Below are positions 1,095 to 55,075 of a DNA stretch of 64,000 nt, one piece after another. The notes below the pieces were generated by a model that did no database searches, was not told the origin of the DNA, and saw nothing but the letters and a program-made list of their open reading frames with translations. The stretch comes from an uncultured virus (IMG/VR IMGVR_UViG_3300042860_000278) (lineage: Duplodnaviria; Heunggongvirae; Uroviricota; Caudoviricetes): IMG/VR virus record IMGVR_UViG_3300042860_000278; one strand, 5' to 3'. How positions within the stretch are numbered: the first letter of the stretch is position 1; the number at the start of each line of letters is the position of its first letter. Both the position numbers and the translations under genes were made by a program.

Positions 1095-4000
1095 ACGTTA
1101 CGTACCGGAAGAGAGGATCGTAGTAAGTATCGATATCGCCCTTGTACGCTTCGTACAGACTCGACACTTGATCCATATACATATCACGGACGCCGTTCAT
1201 TTCCTTCTTGAACGCTTTACGGTCTGCAGGTGTCTCGGCATACATAGCGTAAGCGTTAGTCGCCTGTGAGACCTTATTCAACTGCGCTGTCTGCATGTTG
1301 TACATCTGCACAATAGCCGGAGCTTCTGGATACTTTTCAAGGAAACGGCGCTGGAACTCTTCGTCCGGATTGTTGATAGCCGTGTCGTAGCCGCGCTTCA
1401 GTATTTCCAGTTTCTTCCTTGCCTCGCCGTACTTGATGAGTGACGGACTGATTTTGTTACCGATAAAGCTATCTAAAAATACTGTATCAGTCTTGATGTC
1501 AAAATCTTTGACTCCCTTCGCAGCCAAGACAATGTTAGTCATGTCTGCACCGATACCCGCAAACCCGTCAGCATAAGCGGTCAAGAAGAATCGAACTTGA
1601 GCAGGATCAAATTGATAGCGGCCTAACGTTGCCTTGTTAATTGTATCCGTGATGTATCGATACATTTCTTCAACATTTTCTGAACCACCATAAGCAGGAC
1701 CGTACTTGTTATAGTAATCACGGTAAATAGTCTGCCCCGTGCCGCTCATGTTAGCGATTGATTCAAAAATAGGGCGAACAACGGTGGGGAGTGATGAGTC
1801 AAATAGCCACACCAAAGGCGCATCAGTTGGGTTATATCGAGCAATCGGCAGGGGCAAGAAACTGTCAGACGCAATAGCGGCGAGGTTACCGACCGTTTCC
1901 GAAAAAGATTGGTCAGAATTTCTAAACGCAGCGAATTGTGCACCGGCTGCACCGAAGGCTCCCATGCCGAAGCCCCACGGAAATTGGAAGTACTTATCTT
2001 TCAGAGACGGTAAGTCGAGCCAGTCGAGCGGAATACGCACATTGCGCGTCCACAGCTCCTTGCTATCCGAAGCTACCGAGTTCTTCTGCTCATCGTCATC
2101 GCCGCCCATGCCACCCAAGGAGCGAGCCATCTCGTACAGCACAAAACCCATGCCAAGCAAGAAACCCAACGTCATCTGAGCATTGCGCTTTTGCTGAACG
2201 TAGTTATTGAAATAGTTCTCACGAGCCGCTGGGTCGTTCTTAATTTCTTCCGGCAGTTCTTCTAGTACGTCACGTGCATTTCTAAATGCAGGCGCGATAG
2301 ATTCAAAAGCGCGTACAGCGCCGGTGGCCGAAGGCCCCCAGAATGCAAACAACGCCGTGGGCCATTTCTCTATACCCTTCTTTTCAAAATTTGCTGTATT
2401 TTTGGCGAAGCTCAGTGCAAAACGTTCTGCGGCTTCTCCCTTCAGTTTCTTGTCAGTCTCAGCAACAGACATGGCGCTGCGGTACGCCTGTACGCGGGCA
2501 ACGAAGTCAAACCCGTCCATCCATGAGTCAAAGACCCAATCAACGGCTTCTTTCGTTTTGTCAAACTGTTTACGAGCGATGCCTTTGTTTGAATCGTCGA
2601 GCAGTTCTTCAAATTTGTTGCGAGTCTGCCAGCTACGGACAATCGACACGCGACCGCCGCGCTCCAAGTACCGGTACGCATCGCGCACAAACGGATCACG
2701 CCATGTGTTGGTACTGGGGTTGTAACCACCAATCTTCTTAATCTTCTCCATGTTGCCGCTGTTGTAGGCTCCAGCAACACGAAGCATTTGAGGAATACGA
2801 AGCTTGCCGAATACCTCTTTGCCCACTATCGCAAAATACTTAGCGCCGTTAGCAGGTCCCAACTCGTTCGCTATGGCGGTAGAGTTGAAGACAGTATTTC
2901 TAATGAAATCATACGGTGCAAACTTGGGCTGATAACGAGTATGACCTTGACCCACAATGCTGGTAAACGTACGTATGGCAGACATGACTCGGCCTTCGGT
3001 GGTCTTCTCCGGCTCCCACTCTGGACGTAACGCTTCGATGATCTTGGGATCATTGACCTGCCAGACTTCGATGTCACCGTTCGGCAGATAGTTGTAGAAC
3101 TTGTCCTTACCGACCCACTTTTTGCCGCCCTTGCTGTCGGTCTCCTCGAAGTTGATCTCGCCCTTATAGCGATCATTGAACTTGATGACCCCGACCATCT
3201 CGCCCTTGACGTACTGTCTGCCGCTTTTGAAATTAGGCTTAATCAAGTTGATAAGTGTCGGCACGATGTCCGCACGTGCAGCGCGAGTCGCTGCCTTACC
3301 GGCGTTGATCATACTCATCATGATCGGGCTATCAGGTGCACTTTCACGACCACGGAAACCCGGCAGGATTTCGTTCGGTACAGTATTTAAATAGAGGACC
3401 TGATTCTTTTTCTCGACGCTGGGTTTGACTTTACCCATCAACGGAACGTACTTGTCCCAGCCGTAGAGCTTGATCAAATTCTTCGCAGGCTGCGTCAGGT
3501 GATTAGCTTCAGCATTGAACTGCTGCGTCACCTTGTCGAGTTGAATCAGTGCCTCACGTACAGCCTTGATCTCGTTGCCGTACAGCTTCATCTCCTGCGC
3601 CATTTGACGCAAGATTCCGTTGTTAGTCTCGTAGTCCCAATCTTGGATGATGTCGTACGCAGGATCTTCGTAATCGACCGGACGCTTACCCGGTTTACGA
3701 GCTTCGCCCTTACGATCCAACTGGCCATACGAAGCGCCCAGCGGATCAGCGTACTTGTCAGCATCGGCAGACTTACGTGGCTTGCCGTCCGGCCCGATCT
3801 CAATACCTGCTAGCTGCAGCAGCCGTGCATAGATGGCGTCACGGGTTGCACCGTCCAGTTCTTGGTTCGTCTGCACGGAATCGATCAGCATGTCGCGAAG
3901 CTGCGCGTAACTGATCAGTTTGTCGCTGCCCTTCAGCCTGACGGACGGCGTGGTCTTCAGTGGCTTCTCTTTGAGGTAATTGGTCAGCCGACGCTGGTCG

Positions 4001-7090: not shown

Positions 7091-8356
7091 TTATCGACGG
7101 ATACCTAATGGGTCGCTCTGTGAAGGAGCGGCTGCACCATCTTGCATACCGGGAATAATGTCAGCAAGTTCTGGGTTATTTGCTCTGAACTGTTCTCTTT
7201 CCGCGATAGCATCTTGTAGCGCCTGCTGAAGCTCTGCTTTATCTGGGCCGAAAGTCTTCGGAAGCATTTTCTGAAGGTCAGTAATACGCTTCGTCATAGT
7301 ATTGTACGTATTGATTAGGTTTTTAGTGCTGCCACTCGTTTTACCTGTCAGCAGTGCATACGCATCTTCTGGAGATATATTTGGATCGTTTGCGATCCGT
7401 TTAGCGAGTGTACCTGTAAGCGCCTTGAGTCCGCCCGGATCGGCATTCGCCTGCGCGATCATTGTCCGTCGCATCGCAGCCTGATCTTCTCGACGACCTG
7501 TCTCTTCCCAAATCTTCATGCCGGTCTCAAGGGCCTGCTCACGACCTTGGGTGTAAAGCTGATTCGCAGTCTTGTAGTCGCCTTCCTTGCGGAGCTGCTC
7601 CGCTTCCAACATCTTGAGGCCCGCATCTTGAGCTTCCTTCTGCAGATTGCGAAGTCTCTCGTTGGTGGCACGTTGGGCCTTGGTATAACCCGAGCCTGCC
7701 TTACCCAAAGATGTCGCAAACGTCGCGCCGGGATCAGCAGCGGCAGCGGCCAGATTGAAGAAAAACTCAGCACGGTCGAGCTTACGCTCTTCGGCTTCTT
7801 GGCCCGGAAGGGCACGTTGCATCTCAGCCGCTCGTGCTTTCTGCGCTTTGGCTAACTCGCCGTACTGACCGAGGCCATACTTTTTAGCAGCCTCTTCGCT
7901 AGCTTCCATTCGCTCGTCAACAAACTCGCCTTGCGGTCTACCGTACTGGCCGTAGTACTCCATCAAATTTTTGACGTAGTTAGGATCAGACGGGTCCATC
8001 GGAGGAGCAGCCGACACGCCACCCTGCTGGAACGCAACGATACCGCCGCCAGCAAATGACGGAGCCTCCATCGCTCCTGCATCCATACCACCCAAGCCCT
8101 GCTCCATCGGCTCGCGCACGTTCTCCAGCATGTTGAGCTGGTCACGCAAAGTGCCGCCTTCCGGCATCTGGCGCTGCGGTTCTTTGAGACGTTGGAACTG
8201 TTTCATCATGGAGTAGAGGTCCGTCAACGGCGCAACCCCATCCACTGCCATACTTTTGACATAAGCAACGGCTTGTTCAGGCGGCATCCCTTTCTGGATG
8301 GCCTGCTGGAGCGAAGTCATCATCGTTCGCCCGGTTTCGCTGACTGGACCGATCAT
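7091..8356 (-). CDS. Putative internal virion/ejection protein
   Basis: Helical Ala/Gln/Glu-rich 421 aa, in the usual ejection-protein position; FAGGG and FQQGG motifs. Confidence 0.6.
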   Translation of the reverse strand: MIGPVSETGRTMMTSLQQAIQKGMPPEQAVAYVKSMAVDGVAPLTDLYSMMKQFQRLKEPQRQMPEGGTLRDQLNMLENVREPMEQGLGGMDAGAMEAPSFAGGGIVAFQQGGVSAAPPMDPSDPNYVKNLMEYYGQYGRPQGEFVDERMEASEEAAKKYGLGQYGELAKAQKARAAEMQRALPGQEAEERKLDRAEFFFNLAAAAADPGATFATSLGKAGSGYTKAQRATNERLRNLQKEAQDAGLKMLEAEQLRKEGDYKTANQLYTQGREQALETGMKIWEETGRREDQAAMRRTMIAQANADPGGLKALTGTLAKRIANDPNISPEDAYALLTGKTSGSTKNLINTYNTMTKRITDLQKMLPKTFGPDKAELQQALQDAIAEREQFRANNPELADIIPGMQDGAAAPSQSDPLGIRR

Positions 8357-37158: not shown

Positions 37159-37186
37159 GGCGAGGGGGGCGAAAGCCCCCCGAGCC
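37159..37186 (+). promoter_or_regulatory. Intergenic GAAA-tetraloop hairpin, copy 1
   Basis: GGC-GA-GGGGGGC-GAAA-GCCCCCC-GA-GCC, directly before an SD; no U tract. Confidence 0.6.
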
Positions 37187-37198
37187 AAGGAGAGAATC

Positions 37199-37474: not shown

Positions 37475-37502
37475 GGCGGAGGGGGCGAAAGCCCCCCGAG
37501 CC
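37475..37502 (+). promoter_or_regulatory. Intergenic GAAA-tetraloop hairpin, copy 2
   Basis: Near-identical to 37159-37186, again directly before an SD. Confidence 0.6.
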
Positions 37503-37514
37503 AGAGGGAATTAA

Positions 37515-38753: not shown

Positions 38754-38769
38754 CGTGGGAATTCCCACG
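38754..38769. promoter_or_regulatory. 16-bp palindrome CGTGGGAATTCCCACG, copy 1 of 3
   Basis: Perfect palindrome, repeated at 39394 and 40247. Confidence 0.75.
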
Positions 38770-39391: not shown

Positions 39392-39411
39392 GGCGTGGGA
39401 ATTCCCACGCC
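39392..39411. promoter_or_regulatory. Palindrome copy 2 (20 bp, GGCGTGGGAATTCCCACGCC)
   Basis: Perfect palindrome just upstream of the RBS of the 39426 gene. Confidence 0.75.
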
Positions 39412-39425
39412 ACGGAGAATCAGAC

Positions 39426-40246: not shown

Positions 40247-40262
40247 CGTGGGAATTCCCACG
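40247..40262. promoter_or_regulatory. Palindrome copy 3
   Basis: CGTGGGAATTCCCACG abutting the GAGGAG SD of the 40276 gene. Confidence 0.75.
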
Positions 40263-40275
40263 GAGGAGAGTCAGT

Positions 40276-41340: not shown

Positions 41341-41366
41341 TCTTACCAGATCACAGGAGAATCTGT

Positions 41367-42266: not shown

Positions 42267-42307
42267 TTGGACTTTTTGTACTCATCAGAGAATCAGGAGT
42301 AATAGTT

Positions 42308-43442: not shown

Positions 43443-44672
43443 ATGGATACAGCAATGAAGATCAAGAAGGCCAAGAGCCGCTTGATGCGACACGTTGAGA
43501 CCCGGCACATGGCGGGTATCTTTGTGAGTGGCAAGGTCGAGATATGCGACAACCTTCCTACCGCATGCACTGATGGGTGGAACGAGAAGTATGGTCGCAA
43601 GTTCACTGACGGGCTGACCATTGCAGAGGCCACGGGTGTGGTACTGCACGAGGGACTGCACAAGTATGCGAAGCACATCCCTCGCTTCCGTAAGTTGATG
43701 AAGACTGACGGACGCATGATCAATGCAGCGATGGACTACGCGATCAACGACATCATTCATAACTTGAAAGACAAGACGTTGGCCGTGCTGCCCGAGCCGC
43801 ATCTGTACAACCCCATGTTCAGGAATTGGTCTGTCCTTGAGATATACGAGTTCTTGAAGACAGGTCGAGACAAGGACGGCAACAAGCGTGGCGATCCCAA
43901 AGAGAACCGTGATGGTGTCAACGTTGGCGGTAGTCAGTACGACACCGAGTCGATGGATGAGCACAGCGCGGAGAGCATCACGGGCGAGGAACTCAGCGAA
44001 GCAGAGGCAGAGCAGATCGCCAAGAAGATCGACGATGCGATCAAGCAGGGCGCGATCATTGCCGGTGCGATGGGGCTTGACCTGCCCCGTGCGTTGACTG
44101 AATCGTTAGACCCGGTGGTCGATTGGACTGCGGAGTTGTATGACTTTGCTAGCAACAACGTGCGCGGTGCTGACGAGTACAGTTTCCAACGATACAACCG
44201 ACGCCGGATCGCTGACGATATCTACATGCCGACGATGTACAAGGACACCATCAGCGAAGTGTTGATCATGCCGGATGCGTCCGGATCGATTGACCAACGT
44301 GCGATGAATGCGTGGGCAGCGGAGATCGCCAACGTGTGCGAGGTGATGCAGCCTGATCTGGTGCGTGTGTTGTGGTGGGACACGCAGGTGCATGCCGAGC
44401 AGGTGTTTGAGCCGGGTCAGTTCGATCAGATTCGTGACCTGCTCACGCCCCGTGGCGGTGGTGGTACGGAGGTCTCGTGCCTCAGTCGCTACATCAATGA
44501 TAAGAATATTACGGCAGACTGTGCCATCGTGTTGACGGACGGTTACGTCGAGCCTCAAGTGAAGTGGGACATCGACATCCCGACGCTGTGGATGGTGACG
44601 GAGAGTCGTATGTTTCGTCCCCCGGTGGGACGCATGGTGAAGATCGATAACCTTGGAAAGGAGAATCAGTGA
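43443..44672 (+). CDS. Metallopeptidase-like (HExxH) plus vWA domain protein (DUF2201-like)
   Basis: TA.TDG, LHEGLH, N.AMD..IN; MIDAS-type DASGS, GGGGT and LTDG. Confidence 0.85.
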   Translation: MDTAMKIKKAKSRLMRHVETRHMAGIFVSGKVEICDNLPTACTDGWNEKYGRKFTDGLTIAEATGVVLHEGLHKYAKHIPRFRKLMKTDGRMINAAMDYAINDIIHNLKDKTLAVLPEPHLYNPMFRNWSVLEIYEFLKTGRDKDGNKRGDPKENRDGVNVGGSQYDTESMDEHSAESITGEELSEAEAEQIAKKIDDAIKQGAIIAGAMGLDLPRALTESLDPVVDWTAELYDFASNNVRGADEYSFQRYNRRRIADDIYMPTMYKDTISEVLIMPDASGSIDQRAMNAWAAEIANVCEVMQPDLVRVLWWDTQVHAEQVFEPGQFDQIRDLLTPRGGGGTEVSCLSRYINDKNITADCAIVLTDGYVEPQVKWDIDIPTLWMVTESRMFRPPVGRMVKIDNLGKENQ

Positions 44673-44929: not shown

Positions 44930-44940
44930 GGAGAATCAGT

Positions 44941-49377: not shown

Positions 49378-49651
49378 AAAAGTTCTAACCGAGATCAAGG
49401 CTTACTACGCGATGCCCATCGGCACAGGTTATGGCAACGCCGGAGTGCCAGACTTCCTAGTCTGCTACAAGGGGTTGTTCATAGGCATCGAATGCAAGGC
49501 CAAGGGGAACAAACCGACTGCCTTACAGATGAAAAACTTTAAAGACATTGAAGAGGCAGGAGGACAAGTGCTGTTGATTGATGAGTCTAATGTTGATCAG
49601 TTGTTGCAATTAATATTGATAGGAGTCAGTTCGTATGAAAAAGCAGAGTAA
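49343..49651 (+). CDS. VRR-NUC domain nuclease
   Basis: TPE.KVK, G.G..GVPD, IECKA, PT.LQ and AGG motifs. Confidence 0.88.
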   Translation: MTPERKVKDKVRKVLTEIKAYYAMPIGTGYGNAGVPDFLVCYKGLFIGIECKAKGNKPTALQMKNFKDIEEAGGQVLLIDESNVDQLLQLILIGVSSYEKAE

Positions 49652-52627: not shown

Positions 52628-52909
52628 ATGGCTTACGTAAACAAACCCCGCCCGTACAAGAAAGAGTATCAGCAACAGAAAGCCCGTAAGGAACATGCAG
52701 ATCGCATGGAGCGTCAACGTGCGCGCCGCGCTGTTGATAAGAACGGTAAAGATTTAAATGGTAACGGAAAAGCAGATCGACGCGAGGGCAAGGACATTGC
52801 CCACAAGAAAGCGTTATCGAAAGGTGGAACCAACAAAGACGGTTACACCATCCAGTCAATTCGTCGCAACCGCTCTTTCAAACGTACCTCAAGCGGAGCG
52901 ATGAAGTAG
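52628..52909 (+). CDS. Small basic HNH-like protein
   Basis: GGAGG SD; R.YK.EY N-terminus and a degenerate HNH pattern GKDI.H...LS.GG.N.........NRS. Confidence 0.65.
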   Translation: MAYVNKPRPYKKEYQQQKARKEHADRMERQRARRAVDKNGKDLNGNGKADRREGKDIAHKKALSKGGTNKDGYTIQSIRRNRSFKRTSSGAMK

Positions 52910-53065
52910 TCCCCACAAGGTATGAGTGTGGAGGACAGGGCAGTTCCCACCCACTTCTGCCCTAGCGTAGTCATAAGCGCTCAACCATGCCATTCAAGGC
53001 AGCGGCTATCTAACTGATTCTCACCGCTGTGACTTGAACGACTGGCCCCCGTAAGGGGCTTCTTC
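52909..53065 (+). ncRNA. Putative structured small RNA (4-5 hairpins) with an anti-RBS loop
   Basis: Stems at 52909-52936, 52937-52963, 52964-52981 (weak), 52993-53038 and 53045-53059 followed by TTCTT. G-U pairs favour the plus strand. Loop 53013-53022 is the reverse complement of GAGAATCAGT. Confidence 0.7.
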
Positions 53066-53075
53066 AAGAGGAATT

Positions 53076-54662
53076 ATGGAAGTCATAGAGAACACGGCGC
53101 TACGCCTAACCGTGCCGAATCAAGTTGCTCAGAACATCCTGAGTAAAGTTGAAAAGAGCGAGTTGATCATCGACTGCGGAACAGCCAAAGACATTGCTGT
53201 CTACTGGGGTTTCGATGAAGCATCGTTGCTAACTTATCTACTCGACGGTGAACTTCCGAAGGAAGGCACACCTATCATCCCGTCGCCAATACTCAGAGAT
53301 TACAACTGGCCGGGCGTCTTCAAACCATTTGATCACCAGAAGAGTACTGCATCATTCCTAAGTCTGAGGCAGAGAGCGTTCTGCTTTAACGAAGCCGGGA
53401 CAGGCAAGACCTCTGCTGCGATATGGGCAGCGGACTACCTGATGACACTAGGCTTGGTAAAAAGAGTTCTAGTGATCTGCCCGTTGTCGATCATGCACTC
53501 AGCATGGCAAGCAGACATCTTCAAGACCGCGATGCATCGTTCATGCGGCGTGGCATATGGCGATGGTGCGAAGCGGAAACAAATTATCAACAACCCTTAC
53601 GACTTCATCGTTATTAATTATGACGGAGTTGCAATCGTCAGGGATGAGATTCGTAACGGTGGATTCGATCTGATCATCGTTGATGAGGCGAATGCATACA
53701 AGACACCGACGACGAAACGATGGAAGACGTTAGCGTCAATCATTACATCTGATACACGCCTGTGGATGATGACCGGCACACCTGCCTCGCAGTCTCCGGT
53801 GGATGCCTATGGCCTTGCGAAGTTGATCTCACCGTACCGTGTACCGAAGTTCATGAGTGCGTGGCGGGATAAAGTTATGCGCCAAGTCTCACGATTCAAG
53901 TGGATGCCCAAACCAGATTCGCAACACGAAGTGCGTTACGCGCTACAACCTGCGATCCGGTATACCAAGAAAGAATGCTTGGATCTACCAGAGGTGACGT
54001 ATCAAACCCGTGAAGTACCGCTCACGGTGCAAGTCGCAAGATACTATAAAACCCTTAAAAATCAGATGTTAATCGAAGCTGCTGGGCAAATGGTGTCAGC
54101 AGTCAACGCTGCGGCAAGCATGAGCAAGTTGCTGCAAATCTCAGGCGGCGCGGTCTACACCGATCACCGCGATGTGGTCGAGTTTGATGTGTCTCCACGC
54201 CTTGAAGCGATGCGCGAAGTGCTTGACGAAACGTCAAACAAAGTTGTAATATTCGTACCGTACATACACACGATTGATGTTGTCACTGAATATCTGAACC
54301 GCGAGGGCTACACTAACGAAGTGATCAAAGGCGATGTGCCACCCAAGACACGCGCCGATATCATCGACAGGTTCCAGTCTCAAGAAAATCCGCGAGTGCT
54401 TGTGATTCAACCGCAAGCAGCATCTCACGGTGTGACTTTGACCGCCGCTGATACGATCATCTTCTGGTCGCCTGTGATGAGCGTTGAGACTTATCTTCAG
54501 TGTATCGGTCGTATTGATAGAGTTGGACAGCGTAATCCGTGTACGGTCGTTCATCTTCAGGGTTCTGATGCTGAGCGTCGCGTGTACAACATGTTGCAAG
54601 GTAAAGTTGATTCGCATCAAAAACTAGTTGATCTGTATAAGCAGGAGTTGGAATCAGTATGA
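53076..54662 (+). CDS. SNF2-family helicase
   Basis: NEAGTGKT, VICP, IVDEA, MTGTP and Q...RI.R.GQ motifs. Confidence 0.92.
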   Translation: MEVIENTALRLTVPNQVAQNILSKVEKSELIIDCGTAKDIAVYWGFDEASLLTYLLDGELPKEGTPIIPSPILRDYNWPGVFKPFDHQKSTASFLSLRQRAFCFNEAGTGKTSAAIWAADYLMTLGLVKRVLVICPLSIMHSAWQADIFKTAMHRSCGVAYGDGAKRKQIINNPYDFIVINYDGVAIVRDEIRNGGFDLIIVDEANAYKTPTTKRWKTLASIITSDTRLWMMTGTPASQSPVDAYGLAKLISPYRVPKFMSAWRDKVMRQVSRFKWMPKPDSQHEVRYALQPAIRYTKKECLDLPEVTYQTREVPLTVQVARYYKTLKNQMLIEAAGQMVSAVNAAASMSKLLQISGGAVYTDHRDVVEFDVSPRLEAMREVLDETSNKVVIFVPYIHTIDVVTEYLNREGYTNEVIKGDVPPKTRADIIDRFQSQENPRVLVIQPQAASHGVTLTAADTIIFWSPVMSVETYLQCIGRIDRVGQRNPCTVVHLQGSDAERRVYNMLQGKVDSHQKLVDLYKQELESV

Positions 54663-55075
54663 GTTTTAACACTGAAGAATTAGTTGAAGCGTTCATTGCT
54701 ATACGCACTGCGCGTGATGAGTTGAAGAAGAAGTACGAAGCAGACGACGCCGTGTTGGAAGAAGACATGAATAAGATCAAAGTTGAATTGTTGAAGATCT
54801 GCAATACGGTTGGCGCTGACACGATCAAGACTTCTTCTGGAACTGTCATGCGTAAGTTGAACGAACGCTTTTACTGTAGCGATTGGAATGTGTTTGGTAA
54901 GTTCGTTCTTGAGAACAGTGCAGTTGAATTGTTGGAGCGGCGTATACACCAAACTAATTTCAAGCAGTTCATGTCTGAACATGAGGGGGATGGACTGCCA
55001 CCCGGTGTCAACGCGATGCGTGAATTTGATGTCACGATTCGCAAGCCGTCCTCCTCATCCGTTGTTAACAATTAA
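54659..55075 (+). CDS. Conserved replication-module protein
   Basis: Coiled N-terminus, KT..GT, DW, LLE.RI.Q and PPG motifs; ATGA overlap. Confidence 0.7.
   Translation: MSFNTEELVEAFIAIRTARDELKKKYEADDAVLEEDMNKIKVELLKICNTVGADTIKTSSGTVMRKLNERFYCSDWNVFGKFVLENSAVELLERRIHQTNFKQFMSEHEGDGLPPGVNAMREFDVTIRKPSSSSVVNN

What the first reader, a model, noticed from the sequence alone, without database searches (positions are those of the whole stretch)
52909..53065. Candidate phage-encoded multi-target antisense sRNA whose loop matches a motif shared by about 12 ribosome-binding sites
Seen: the longest intergenic gap in the replication module folds into consecutive hairpins. The largest (TTCAAG-GCAGCGG / CCGCTGT-GA-CTTGAA, 52993-53038) presents an 18-nt loop CUAUCUAACUGAUUCUCA, and ACUGAUUCUC (53013-53022) is the exact reverse complement of GAGAAUCAGU. 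That element overlaps or adjoins the SD-to-start interval of many plus-strand genes: 44661 and 44931 (GAGAATCAGT, 10/10), 39415 and 42288 (GAGAATCAG), 37192 (GAGAATCA), 40266 (GAGAgTCAGT), 36977 (GAGAATCgG), 37915 (TGAGgATCAG), 49622 (gGAgTCAGTT), 54650 (gGAATCAGT), 37506 (GgGAATtA) and 41357 (GAGAATCtGT). All lower-case deviations except 41357 are A>G or C>U changes that keep pairing through G-U wobbles, which points to RNA-RNA recognition rather than a DNA-binding protein. A given 10-mer is expected only about 0.1 times by chance in both strands of 64 kb. Inference: an RNA made with the replication genes co-ordinately switches translation of a whole early regulon, most simply off by RBS occlusion, possibly as a guide for the adjacent small basic HNH-like protein. 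I do not recognise this as a described system.
Basis: partly seen in the sequence, partly recalled or inferred. Interest (0 to 1): 0.93.

Follow-up and report, generated by a model that had tools for sequence, protein, structure and literature searches.

The report
Conserved phage RNA matching ribosome-binding sites
The gap before the phage's SNF2 helicase gene encodes a conserved, folded RNA found in many uncultured water phages, and one of its loops is complementary to the ribosome-binding sites of that phage's own early genes, so it probably tunes their translation, though no expression data exist yet.

Summary
The hairpin 52993-53038, its 18-nt loop, and the loop's complementarity to GAGAATCAGT just before start codons are all real and exceed chance.

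The region 52910-53060 belongs to a structured RNA family with no Rfam match. The fold is a P1 hairpin whose loop pairs with a downstream strand (a pseudoknot), a variable P2, a long P3 hairpin and a GC hairpin P4. Covariation is strong. I found 55 distinct copies, one per record, almost always between a small basic HNH-like gene and the SNF2 gene.

P3's apical part carries an anti-Shine-Dalgarno-like CUCC/CCUC tract in 40 of 55 copies; composition-preserving shuffles give 14.8±3.1. Each genome's loop matches its own start regions better than those of other genomes, and the matches lie almost only on the RNA's strand: 28/465 against 1/374. Both results replicated in 9 new genomes.

Best reading (~0.55): the loop pairs with early-gene ribosome-binding sites and represses their translation.

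- **Not shown:** a discrete transcript. The window has no promoter or terminator here, and P4 is rarely a terminator.
- **Not tested:** the sign of the effect.
- **Unsupported:** the idea that the RNA guides the neighbouring HNH-like protein.

The parts
52910..53060 (+). Whole structured RNA element (P1, pseudoknot, P2, P2b, P3, P4), lying between the stop codon of the small basic ORF and the SNF2 ribosome-binding site
   Evidence: Covariance model R1 scores 79.9 bits, E 8.6e-18, over 52905-53058. The plus-strand fold has z -3.1. There is no Rfam match.
52910..52935 (+). P1 hairpin: 5' arm about 52910-52916, loop AAGGTATGAGT 52917-52927, 3' arm about 52928-52935 with one bulged A
   Evidence: Sequence. 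Across 29 distinct elements the two arms pair with many different sequences. The mean contiguous helix is 4.9 bp with the true partner and 2.9 bp with mismatched partners; helices of 5 bp or more occur in 48% against 6.7%.
52919..52924 (+). 5' strand of the long-range (pseudoknot) helix, GGTATG, inside the P1 loop
   Evidence: It pairs with 52986-52991. RNAalifold finds 6 pairs, 4 of them with compensatory double changes in 28 sequences. In a second set the helix is 100% paired in 35 distinct sequences, with 3 pairs changed on both sides.
52986..52991 (+). 3' strand of the long-range helix, CATGCC, preceded by the conserved AAC
   Evidence: Example of compensation: GACGCA/TGCGTC in L008 and L013.
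52937..52981 (+). Variable P2 hairpin (AGGGCAG...CTGCCCT, 52937-52963) and small P2b hairpin (AGCG...CGCT, 52964-52981)
   Evidence: Fold. Relatives carry a G-rich/C-rich hairpin of variable length at this position; it is absent in L024.
52993..53038 (+). P3 hairpin: 7-bp basal stem, asymmetric internal loop (TGA on the 3' side), inner stem CAGCGG/CCGCTG, 18-nt apical loop
   Evidence: All 7 basal-stem pairs have compensatory changes; 5 of 7 do.
53013..53022 (+). Seed in the apical loop, ACTGATTCTC, complementary to GAGAATCAGT (the Shine-Dalgarno 3' half plus the spacer)
   Evidence: Relatives carry a CUCC/CCUC tract at the equivalent place in 40 of 55 copies.
53044..53060 (+). P4, a GC-rich hairpin GGCCCCC-GTAA-GGGGCT followed by TCTTC. 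It is not a canonical intrinsic terminator.
   Evidence: Sequence. The terminator scan does not report it. A hairpin at this position is present in 27 of 29 elements, with a U-rich tail in only 5 of 29.
52628..52909 (+). Upstream neighbour: a 93-aa basic protein with a degenerate HNH-like motif (context, perhaps a partner)
   Evidence: No Pfam hit; PHROG 4590, function unknown. The profile search of solved structures hit only colicin E7 DNase, E~0.2. The best fold match is an HNH nicking endonuclease at Z 3.2. The gene is present in 76 of 80 relatives.
53076..54662 (+). Downstream neighbour: SNF2-family helicase gene, with RBS AAGAGGAATT at 53066-53075
   Evidence: PHROG 62, DNA helicase, E 1e-105; tblastn hits annotated as SNF2 helicases. 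Its own start region pairs poorly with the loop, -5.2 kcal/mol.
44661..44670 (+). Predicted target: start region of the 85-aa gene (ATG 44672); 10 of 10 complementary
   Evidence: duplex -15.8 kcal/mol.
44931..44940 (+). Predicted target: start region of the 343-aa gene (ATG 44941); 10 of 10 complementary
   Evidence: duplex -15.5 kcal/mol.
40266..40275 (+). Predicted target: start region of the 81-aa gene (ATG 40276), GAGAGTCAGT
   Evidence: duplex -15.5 kcal/mol.
39415..39424 (+). Predicted target: start region of the GP88-family gene (ATG 39426), GAGAATCAGA
   Evidence: duplex -13.9 kcal/mol.
42288..42297 (+). Predicted target: upstream of and overlapping the SD of the AAA-ATPase-like gene (ATG 42308)
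   Evidence: duplex -15.3 kcal/mol.
41357..41366 (+). Weaker predicted target: start region of the 299-aa gene (ATG 41367), GAGAATCTGT
   Evidence: duplex -10.9 kcal/mol.
49622..49631 (+). Weaker predicted target: start region of the DUF3310 gene (ATG 49635)
   Evidence: duplex -12.3 kcal/mol.
54650..54658 (+). Weaker predicted target: start region of the 138-aa gene that overlaps the SNF2 stop (ATG 54659)
   Evidence: duplex -11.7 kcal/mol. Orthologues in 9 of 14 other genomes pair with their own loop at -11.6 kcal/mol or better.

Best explanation
Region 52910-53060 encodes one member of a widespread, previously unnamed family of ~130-170-nt structured phage RNAs. The scaffold is a P1 hairpin whose loop forms a 6-bp long-range helix, a variable P2, a P3 hairpin with a conserved internal loop, and a GC hairpin P4. 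This scaffold presents a single-stranded pyrimidine tract at the top of P3.

That tract resembles the anti-Shine-Dalgarno end of 16S rRNA, but it is extended by genome-specific bases. It therefore pairs with the Shine-Dalgarno sequence plus the adjacent spacer (or 5' flank) of a handful of genes transcribed in the same direction as the RNA, which are the early and replication-side genes. In this window those are about 5-9 genes at 39-55 kb carrying GGAGAATCAGT-ATG-type start regions.

The likeliest consequence is occlusion of 30S binding. The result would be coordinated translational down-regulation of those genes as the replication-module transcript accumulates, making this an RNA counterpart of a protein such as T4 RegA.

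Shown: the conserved fold, the conserved anti-SD-like tract, the genome-specific and strand-specific complementarity, and the fixed synteny.

Inferred: that pairing happens in vivo; that it represses rather than stabilises or activates; and whether the RNA acts as a processed small RNA or while still embedded in the operon mRNA.
For: 1. It is a real structured RNA.
- 11 of 13 RNAalifold pairs carry compensatory double changes in 28 sequences.
- In an independent set of 35 distinct sequences, 95.4% of cells are paired, against 78.2% in shuffles (0 of 500 as high) and 27-39% with partners slid.
- P1 arms pair with their own partner but not with mismatched partners.
- The plus-strand fold has z -3.1, the minus strand z -1.6.

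2. Family and synteny.
- R1 finds one copy in the window and in 29 of 80 SNF2-relative loci. It finds no second copy in 855 kb, which includes three complete genomes.
- 36 of 100 pattern-hit loci are true matches.
- The basic gene lies upstream in 33 of 36 and SNF2 downstream in 27 of 36.

3. Anti-SD tract. CUCC/CCUC occurs in the P3 interior in 40 of 55 distinct elements. Composition-preserving shuffles give 14.8±3.1, with a maximum of 25 in 500.

4. Window. Loop-to-start-region pairing beats 299 of 300 shuffled loops. The best ten window start regions average -13.3 kcal/mol; the same loop against other genomes' start regions gives -8.6 to -10.3.

5. Co-variation across 16 genomes.
- Perfect complements of 8 nt or more occur in 3.5% of own start regions. 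The mean over the whole matrix is 1.2% and the mean for other genomes is about 1% (permutation p<5e-5).
- The duplex-energy residual on the diagonal is -0.96 (z -3.8, p~2e-4, 12 of 16 negative). Controls are null: CDS-internal windows z -1.1, reversed loops z -0.4, reverse-complemented loops z -1.0.
- Examples: G008 UCGUUUUCUCC with GGAGAAAACGA; G015 UCAAUCUCCC with GGGAGAUUGA; G003 UUUGCUCCUUUCG with GAAGGAGCAA; G017 UUGAUCUCC with GGAGAUCA-nn-AUG in 5 genes; G018 ACUUUCUCC with GGAGAAAGU.

6. Strand specificity. Own-loop matches of 8 nt or more occur in 28 of 465 same-strand start regions and 1 of 374 opposite-strand ones (Fisher p 1e-6). SD strength is similar on the two strands: 36% against 34% have an SD of 5 nt or more.

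7. Replication on 9 genomes fetched afterwards, using the unedited P3 interior. Own matches are 5.25% against 2.21% for others (p 0.016). By strand they are 20 of 259 against 1 of 159 (p 8e-4).
Against: - No expression evidence at all. No RNA run holds the phage and the contigs I laid say nothing about transcripts.
- The window has no promoter-like site near the element, and P4 fails the terminator scan. In the family only 10 of 29 elements have their own promoter and only 5 of 29 have a U-rich tail after P4. A free small RNA is therefore unproven, and many copies look like 5' leaders or intercistronic parts of the SNF2 mRNA.
- The position is invariably just upstream of SNF2 and the scaffold is elaborate. 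Both are more typical of cis-regulatory or protein-binding leaders than of simple antisense RNAs.
- The duplex-energy version of the co-variation test loses significance when the whole P3 interior replaces my hand-trimmed apical loops: z -1.0 in the original 16 genomes and z -1.2 in the replication set.
- Effect sizes are small, at 0-8 strong matches per genome. Four of the 16 genomes and three of the 9 replication genomes have no 8-nt match.
- Gene starts came from a crude caller of my own. The genomes are related, so the permutation p-values overstate independence.
- The window's four best targets have no orthologues in the other 15 genomes, so target conservation could not be tested for them.
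- The window's own seed (UUCUCAC) lacks the CUCC core.
Confidence: 0.55

Rival explanations
1. A purely cis-acting leader or intercistronic element of the SNF2 operon. The pseudoknotted fold would bind a protein (for example the neighbouring basic protein, the helicase or ribosomal protein S1) or a ligand. Alternatively it would stabilise or process the mRNA, so setting SNF2-operon expression. On this view the pyrimidine loop serves that function, and its matches to other start regions are incidental.
For: - Fixed position directly upstream of SNF2: the window, 29 of 29 loci and 27 of 36 new copies.
- One copy per genome.
- In 10 of 29 elements a strong sigma-70-type promoter fires straight into P1, so the RNA is the 5' leader of the SNF2 message.
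- Relatives without the RNA carry promoter-like TTGAC..-10 sequences in the same gap; I saw this by eye (L007, L011, L020, L025, L028, L031, L034).
- P4 is mostly not a terminator: a U-rich tail follows it in 5 of 29.
- A conserved pseudoknot in a replication-gene leader has a precedent in the T4 gene 32 leader (passage in PMC10690425).
Against: - It gives no reason for genome-specific, strand-specific complementarity of the P3 loop to the start regions of other genes.
- The loop pairs poorly with SNF2's own start region. In 15 of 16 genomes the own-loop energy is between -4.4 and -9.2 kcal/mol; only G013 reaches -15.1.
- The apical part of P3 varies in length and sequence except for the pyrimidine tract. 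That is unlike a ligand pocket.
- This rival does not exclude the main reading, because an embedded leader can still pair in trans.
Confidence: 0.22
2. A general anti-Shine-Dalgarno decoy. The loop would mimic the 3' tail of 16S rRNA and soak up strong Shine-Dalgarno sequences broadly, on host and phage mRNAs alike. That would shift ribosomes between classes of messages rather than control a defined regulon.
For: - The commonest tracts (CUCCUU, CCUCCUUG, UCUCCUUU) are what the 3' end of 16S rRNA looks like. That likeness is recalled, not tested against any host rRNA.
- CUCC/CCUC occurs in 40 of 55 copies.
- Loops from one genome often pair well with the start regions of other genomes; for example the G002 and G005 loops have high off-diagonal values.
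Against: - There is an own-versus-other excess, with extensions into genome-specific spacers.
- Late, opposite-strand genes have equally strong SDs yet are almost never matched: 1 of 374 and 1 of 159.
- Several copies lack a CUCC core altogether: the window, L002, L008 and others, 15 of 55 in total.
Confidence: 0.1
3. The RNA is the guide or partner of the adjacent small basic HNH-like protein. The two would form a ribonucleoprotein that recognises RBS-like sequences through the P3 loop and cuts or blocks nucleic acid.
For: - The basic gene is immediately upstream in 33 of 36 new copies and in essentially all earlier ones.
- The elaborate conserved scaffold suggests a protein-binding role.
- The RNA occurs only where the protein has lost the canonical residue before the HNH histidine: 28 of 40 loci with A/S-His against 0 of 38 with D/E/H-His.
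Against: - The protein is present in 76 of 80 relatives, most of which lack the RNA (29 of 80 loci have it). It therefore works without the RNA.
- The correlation can be plain phylogeny.
- The HNH assignment is weak: no Pfam hit, PDB profile E~0.2, Foldseek E 4.6, VIA Z 3.2.
- In the RNA-bearing clade the catalytic-type motif is degenerate.
- I ran no RNA-protein test.
Confidence: 0.05
4. A DNA-level site or chance. GAGAATCAGT would be an operator for a DNA-binding protein that happens also to occur inverted in this gap, or the loop match is coincidence on top of Shine-Dalgarno composition.
For: - The motif contains the SD, so some complementarity to any pyrimidine-rich loop is expected.
- The early region has other repeated DNA motifs: a 14-bp palindrome three times and a 15-mer twice.
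Against: - In every genome the match is in the antisense sense and sits in the apical loop of a covarying hairpin.
- Reverse-complemented and reversed loops show no own-genome excess.
- Shuffled loops rarely do as well, 1 of 300.
- The result replicated in new genomes.
Confidence: 0.03

Closest known systems
T4 RegA translational repressor (protein)
   Same: [quoted passage not shown] It competes with the ribosome at the translation initiation regions of about 30 phage mRNAs, overlapping or just 5' of the AUG. It acts on top of transcriptional timing. These points come from passages read in PMC3014915. The logic proposed here is the same: one factor from the replication module and many early start regions.
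   Different: RegA is a 122-aa protein that recognises A+U-rich unstructured RNA. Here the recogniser would be an RNA loop that pairs with the SD plus spacer. I found no RegA homologue and claim no membership. The analogy is functional only.
Phage P1/P7 c4 antisense RNA and P4 CI RNA (recalled, not read here); Rfam holds a C4 family
   Same: These are phage-encoded structured RNAs cut from the same operon transcript as their targets. Their loops pair with several short target sites, including a ribosome-binding site, on the same strand.
   Different: No Rfam family, C4 included, matched the window at gathering score, nor five relatives at E<=1. The present RNA is about twice as long and pseudoknotted. 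It carries one SD-directed seed, and its targets are the start regions of many different genes, not paired sites in a single immunity operon.
C-rich/UCCC-loop small RNAs of Gram-positive bacteria (RNAIII, Rsa RNAs) (recalled)
   Same: A hairpin loop carries a short pyrimidine seed that pairs with the Shine-Dalgarno sequences of multiple mRNAs to block initiation.
   Different: Those are host-encoded, lack this scaffold, and their seeds are not tuned to genome-specific spacers. No sequence or structural relationship was detected.
T4 gene 32 mRNA leader pseudoknot (cis autoregulation)
   Same: A conserved pseudoknot in the leader of a replication gene, used for translational control (passage in PMC10690425; review abstract in PMC3014915).
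   Different: It acts in cis through gp32 binding and has no anti-SD loop matching other genes. It is the model for the main rival reading, not for the best one.
Unnamed candidate 'DNAVirus_1549' in a 2023 catalogue of viral structured RNAs (PMC10690425)
   Same: It is 117 nt long, with 74 sequences, all from freshwater Caudoviricetes contigs of IMG/VR. It has 3 covarying bases and lies within 25 bp upstream of genes with SNF2/ResIII/Helicase_C domains in 25 cases (supplement rows). It may be this motif or part of it.
   Different: Identity is unverified because the alignment and model files were not readable. The catalogue gives no name, no function and no link to ribosome-binding sites, and neither 'helicase' nor 'Shine-Dalgarno' occurs in the main text.

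Membership tests
Any Rfam 15 family (including C4 antisense RNA, riboswitches, ribozymes) | Match to the family covariance model at its gathering score | tested here: not met
   No match in the whole window at gathering score. No match at E<=1 in five relatives, 35 kb.
Trans-acting base-pairing small RNA | Seed complementary to target mRNAs, with seed and targets conserved or co-varying | tested here: met
   Window. Cross-genome excess of own matches. Strand bias. Replication.
Trans-acting base-pairing small RNA | Independent transcript with its own promoter and terminator, or a defined processed species | tested here: inconclusive
   The window has no promoter-like site, and P4 is not reported as terminator-like. 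A promoter is present in 10 of 29 elements and a U-rich tail in 5 of 29. No RNA-seq is available.
Trans-acting base-pairing small RNA | Demonstrated regulation of targets (reporter assays, compensatory mutations) | not testable with these tools
   Needs bench work.
Cis-regulatory leader with transcription attenuation (riboswitch-type) | Intrinsic terminator whose formation competes with the sensor fold | tested here: not met
   P4 stands alone after P3. It fails the terminator criteria in the window and has a U-rich tail in only 5 of 29 elements. I did not search systematically for an alternative pairing.
Cis-regulatory leader acting on the downstream RBS | Element pairs with, or sequesters, the start region of the gene it precedes | tested here: not met
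   Own loop against own SNF2 start region gives -4.4 to -9.2 kcal/mol in 15 of 16 genomes, weaker than each genome's best targets.
HNH (beta-beta-alpha-Me) endonuclease, for the neighbouring 93-aa protein | Match to the HNH profile or fold, with the catalytic His preceded by Asp/Glu and conserved Asn residues | tested here: inconclusive
   No Pfam hit at E<=0.01. The profile of 32 homologues hits only colicin E7 DNase, E 0.2. The AF2 model has pLDDT 86.5. The Foldseek top hits are E9 DNase and EsaD at E 4.6 and 7.1. The VIA top hit is the Gme HNH nicking endonuclease at Z 3.2. Distant homologues carry DH..PLSKGG..SNL..N, while the window protein has AH and lacks SNL.
Catalogue candidate DNAVirus_1549 (PMC10690425) | Match to its covariance model or alignment | not testable with these tools
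   Only table rows were readable. The alignment and model archives could not be opened.

The most novel reading that the evidence does not exclude
The RNA and the adjacent small basic protein, whose HNH-type catalytic motif has decayed exactly in the clade that carries the RNA, form a minimal phage ribonucleoprotein. The conserved pseudoknotted scaffold would bind the protein. The variable P3 loop would act as a programmable guide that directs it to Shine-Dalgarno-plus-spacer sequences of chosen mRNAs, or to the matching DNA. This would be a tiny RNA-guided translational silencer or nuclease unrelated to CRISPR or OMEGA systems.
Probability: 0.05. Interest if true: 0.92.

Novelty: new variant of a known kind. 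Interest (0 to 1): 0.72.

Why it matters
Base-pairing RNAs encoded by lytic phages that regulate the phage's own genes are few, and none known to me uses an anti-Shine-Dalgarno-like seed tuned to a whole set of early-gene start regions.

If the reading is right, it defines a large new RNA family. A narrow pattern alone is estimated to match ~870 stored IMG/VR stretches, and about a third of those tested are true copies. The family has a built-in, readable 'address': the loop of each genome predicts its regulon.

It would be an RNA solution to the problem T4 solves with the RegA protein. It would give a natural set of matched seed/target pairs for studying how short seeds discriminate among ribosome-binding sites. 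It would also offer a compact scaffold for programmable translational control.

Even if the element turns out to act in cis, it is a well-supported new pseudoknotted RNA motif in phage replication modules.

Tried and rejected
- **Expression.** The look-up of sequencing runs listed no RNA holder: 19 lake-water DNA runs and one doubtful low-share run. Laying X20, X1 and X24 gave contig pieces only, with nothing on transcripts.
- **Own assembly.** It is not held. G001 proved to be 100% identical to window 25807-58918, so it adds nothing.
- **Cultured relatives.**
  - There is no near DNA match in 'phages'.
  - The four nearest cultured SNF2 relatives (Rollin, RHph_TM3_14A, Effie, Xp15) have no gap upstream of SNF2 and no R1 match.
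  - The basic protein has no tblastn match in 'phages'.
- **Known RNA classes.** No tRNA or tmRNA is present.
- **Earlier notes.** The scan's earlier notes held nothing.
- **Spacer preference.** I looked for a family-wide spacer preference before ATG that could explain the motif. No shared signal appeared across six genomes.
- **Cis pairing with SNF2.** Pairing of the loop with SNF2's own RBS is weak.
- **Duplex-energy test.** With the whole P3 interior instead of trimmed loops, the duplex-energy co-variation test is not significant (z -1.0 and -1.2). Only the contiguous-match and strand tests survive that change.
- **Literature.** Four searches found no description of such an RNA. The only possible prior sighting is an unnamed catalogue entry.
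- **Complex prediction.** I did not use it, because it cannot take RNA.
- **First motif scripts.** My first two regular-expression scripts for the motif were too strict or too loose and were replaced by anchor-and-pairing rules and then by the covariance model.
Full report
**1. The observation**

The gap between the stop codon of a 93-aa ORF (52628-52909) and the SNF2 helicase start (53076) is 166 nt.

- The hairpin spans 52993-53038 and has the 18-nt loop CTATCTAACTGATTCTCA (53006-53023).
- ACTGATTCTC (53013-53022) is the reverse complement of GAGAATCAGT.
- That 10-mer is exact at 44661 and 44931.
- With one mismatch or fewer the window holds 10 matches, against 4.3±2.25 expected. None of 100 shuffles reached 10.
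- Six of the nine matches other than the loop itself lie directly before plus-strand start codons.

GAGA is the 3' half of a GGAG Shine-Dalgarno (SD) sequence, so the motif is 'SD plus spacer'.

The plus strand of the gap folds better than shuffles (z -3.1). The minus strand does not (z -1.6).

Against 77 start regions from a crude caller of my own, 12 pair with the loop at -10 kcal/mol or better. The mean of the best ten is -13.3, matched by 1 of 300 shuffled loops.

**2. What the region is**

*Relatives.* The phage has no close cultured relative. Its SNF2 protein is at most 40% identical to that of cultured phages.

IMG/VR gave 80 loci with SNF2 at 54-84% identity. Reading their upstream regions showed a shared element with two conserved blocks, AGGCATGAGTG and AACCATGTCAGT.

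*Fold.* An alignment of 28 copies gave an RNAalifold consensus of two helices:
- a long-range helix between the first block (GGCAUG) and the second (CAUGYC);
- the base of the big hairpin, P3.

Eleven of the 13 pairs show compensatory double changes.

The first block sits in the loop of a local hairpin, P1. P1's arms differ from genome to genome yet stay complementary. The mean contiguous helix is 4.9 bp with the true partner and 2.9 bp with mismatched partners. The long-range helix therefore makes a pseudoknot.

*Copy number and spread.* A covariance model (R1) found exactly one copy in the window and in 29 of the 80 loci. It found none elsewhere in 855 kb, which includes three complete genomes.

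A degenerate pattern scan of IMG/VR estimated ~870 matching stretches. Of the 100 loci I tested with R1, 36 were true copies and 27 of those were new. On that second set, 95.4% of cells pair, against 78.2% in shuffles and 27-39% with slid partners. That alignment is fitted to the model, which favours it somewhat.

Rfam has nothing like it.

*Synteny.* Context is nearly fixed. The small basic gene is upstream in 33 of 36 copies and SNF2 downstream in 27 of 36.

**3. The loop**

Across 55 distinct copies the interior of P3 varies greatly in length and sequence. Even so, it contains CUCC or CCUC in 40 copies. Composition-preserving shuffles give 14.8±3.1, with a maximum of 25. Most of the rest carry related tracts such as CCUUUC or UUCCG.

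The family trait is therefore an exposed anti-Shine-Dalgarno-like tract. The window's version, GAUUCUCAC, is an atypical one.

**4. Does the loop track each genome's own start regions?**

I assembled 16 genomes or large contigs that carry the element, called genes crudely but identically in all, and compared every loop with every genome's start regions.

| Test (16 genomes) | Own genome | Comparison | Significance |
|---|---|---|---|
| Perfect complement of 8 nt or more, % of start regions | 3.5% | ~1.1% (other genomes) | permutation p<5e-5 |
| Perfect complement of 7 nt or more | 7.1% | 4.3% (whole-matrix mean) | p 3.5e-4 |
| Duplex-energy residual on the diagonal | -0.96 | permutation sd 0.25 | z -3.8; 12 of 16 negative |

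The energy signal is absent in three controls: CDS-internal windows (z -1.1), reversed loops (z -0.4) and reverse-complemented loops (z -1.0).

The matches run from the SD into genome-specific neighbours:

| Genome | Loop seed | Matching start region |
|---|---|---|
| window | ACUGAUUCUC | GAGAAUCAGU-AUG |
| G008 | UCGUUUUCUCC | GGAGAAAACGA |
| G015 | UCAAUCUCCC | GGGAGAUUGA |
| G003 | UUUGCUCCUUUCG | GAAGGAGCAA |

The matched genes are almost all on the RNA's strand, which is the early and replication side: 28 of 465 against 1 of 374 on the opposite strand (Fisher p 1e-6). SD strength is similar on the two strands.

*Replication.* I then fetched 9 further genomes and used the unedited P3 interior.
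- The contiguous-match excess replicated: 5.25% against 2.21% (p 0.016).
- The strand bias replicated: 20 of 259 against 1 of 159 (p 8e-4).
- Clear cases include G017, where UUGAUCUCC matches GGAGAUCA-nn-AUG in five genes.

*Weak points.*
- With the whole P3 interior the duplex-energy test is not significant in either set (z -1.0 and -1.2).
- Several genomes have no 8-nt match.
- The genomes are related, so the p-values are optimistic.
- The gene calls are rough.
- The window's four best targets are accessory genes with no orthologues in the other 15 genomes.

**5. How it most likely works**

*Shown:*
- a conserved pseudoknotted RNA that presents a pyrimidine seed;
- seeds complementary to the SD plus flank of a few same-strand genes of the same genome.

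*Inferred:*
- The seed pairs with those start regions and blocks 30S binding.
- This lowers translation of a set of early genes once the replication-module transcript builds up.

The closest functional parallel is T4 RegA. It is a repressor encoded in the replication cluster that competes with ribosomes on ~30 start regions (passages read in PMC3014915).

*Open: is the RNA free or embedded?*
- The window has no promoter-like site near it, and P4 is not terminator-like.
- In the family, 10 of 29 copies have a strong promoter firing into P1.
- P4 is present in 27 of 29 but has a U-rich tail in only 5.

Many copies are therefore 5' leaders or intercistronic parts of the SNF2 mRNA. No RNA data exist.

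*Rivals.*
- **Cis-acting leader (0.22).** Fixed synteny, the elaborate fold and the lack of a terminator favour it. It does not explain the loop statistics, and the loop pairs poorly with SNF2's own start region in 15 of 16 genomes.
- **General anti-SD decoy (0.10).**
- **Guide RNA for the neighbouring protein (0.05).**
- **DNA site or chance (0.03).**

**6. The neighbouring protein**

The protein is basic and conserved in 76 of 80 loci. Its HNH likeness is weak:
- no Pfam hit;
- PDB profile hits only to colicin E7 DNase at E~0.2;
- a confident AF2 model (pLDDT 86.5) whose best fold matches are HNH or beta-beta-alpha-Me nucleases at insignificant scores.

Distant homologues show a textbook DH...PLSKGG...SNL...N motif. 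The window's protein has AH and lacks SNL.

The RNA occurs in 28 of 40 loci with A/S before the His and in 0 of 38 with D/E/H. That is intriguing, but it may be plain phylogeny.

**7. Known or new**

- No Rfam family matches.
- Four literature searches found no such RNA.
- A 2023 catalogue of >10,000 viral structured-RNA candidates lists several unnamed motifs upstream of SNF2-domain genes.
- One of them, DNAVirus_1549, is 117 nt long with 74 freshwater sequences and may be this element.
- I could read only its table rows, not its alignment.
- The catalogue assigns it no function.

I rate the finding as a new variant of a known kind: a phage-encoded base-pairing regulator. The fold is well supported. 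The mechanism is plausible and statistically supported, but experimentally untested.

Noticed in passing
window 38755-38768, 39395-39408, 40248-40261: Three exact copies of the 14-bp palindrome GTGGGAATTCCCAC, against 0.25 expected. Each lies just upstream of an early-region gene start, and two lie directly before predicted RNA targets (39426, 40276). Possibly an operator or an RNA hairpin.
   Followed up: partly
window 37172-37186 and 37488-37502: Two exact copies of AAAGCCCCCCGAGCC just upstream of small-ORF start regions (GAGAATCATG at 37192, GGGAATTAAATG at 37506). These look like repeated intergenic cassettes in the early region.
   Followed up: partly
L004 (G007) 2632-3001: In this relative the RNA is separated from SNF2 by about 214 nt. 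By eye that stretch begins with an ATG after a GGAG-like site. I did not check it for an ORF. If it is one, it breaks the usual direct RNA-SNF2 adjacency.
   Followed up: no
G010 (L008), loop at 8040; gene 7460-7810: This copy has no CUCC tract (loop UUUUGCUACCAAAUGUUUG). Its best match is the start region GGUAGCAG-AUG of the gene immediately upstream, 7460-7810. By position that gene appears to be the small basic gene.
   Followed up: partly
L002-L081, small basic protein genes: The HNH-type motif is canonical (DH..PLSKGG..SNL) in relatives without the RNA. It is degenerate (AH/SH, no Pro, no SNL) in all RNA-bearing relatives: 28 of 40 against 0 of 38.
   Followed up: partly
G004 (L090-L093): This IMG/VR record of 70.7 kb carries the SNF2 gene and the RNA twice, about 63.9 kb apart. 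It is therefore an over-length or concatemeric assembly. I used only the first 63,877 bases.
   Followed up: yes
L005, L008-L010, L013, L016, L017, L022-L024, L026, L036 just before the SNF2 ATG: Many relatives end the SNF2 leader with (C/T)AGT-ATG, for example aacagtATG, tacagtATG and ggcagtATG. This is the same -4..-1 context as the window's target motif. No genome-wide preference for it was seen.
   Followed up: partly
window 54659-55075: The 138-aa gene whose start overlaps the SNF2 stop matches PHROG 13900, 'minor head protein' (E 1e-23), although it sits in the replication module. It is conserved after SNF2 in 14 of 15 other genomes.
   Followed up: no
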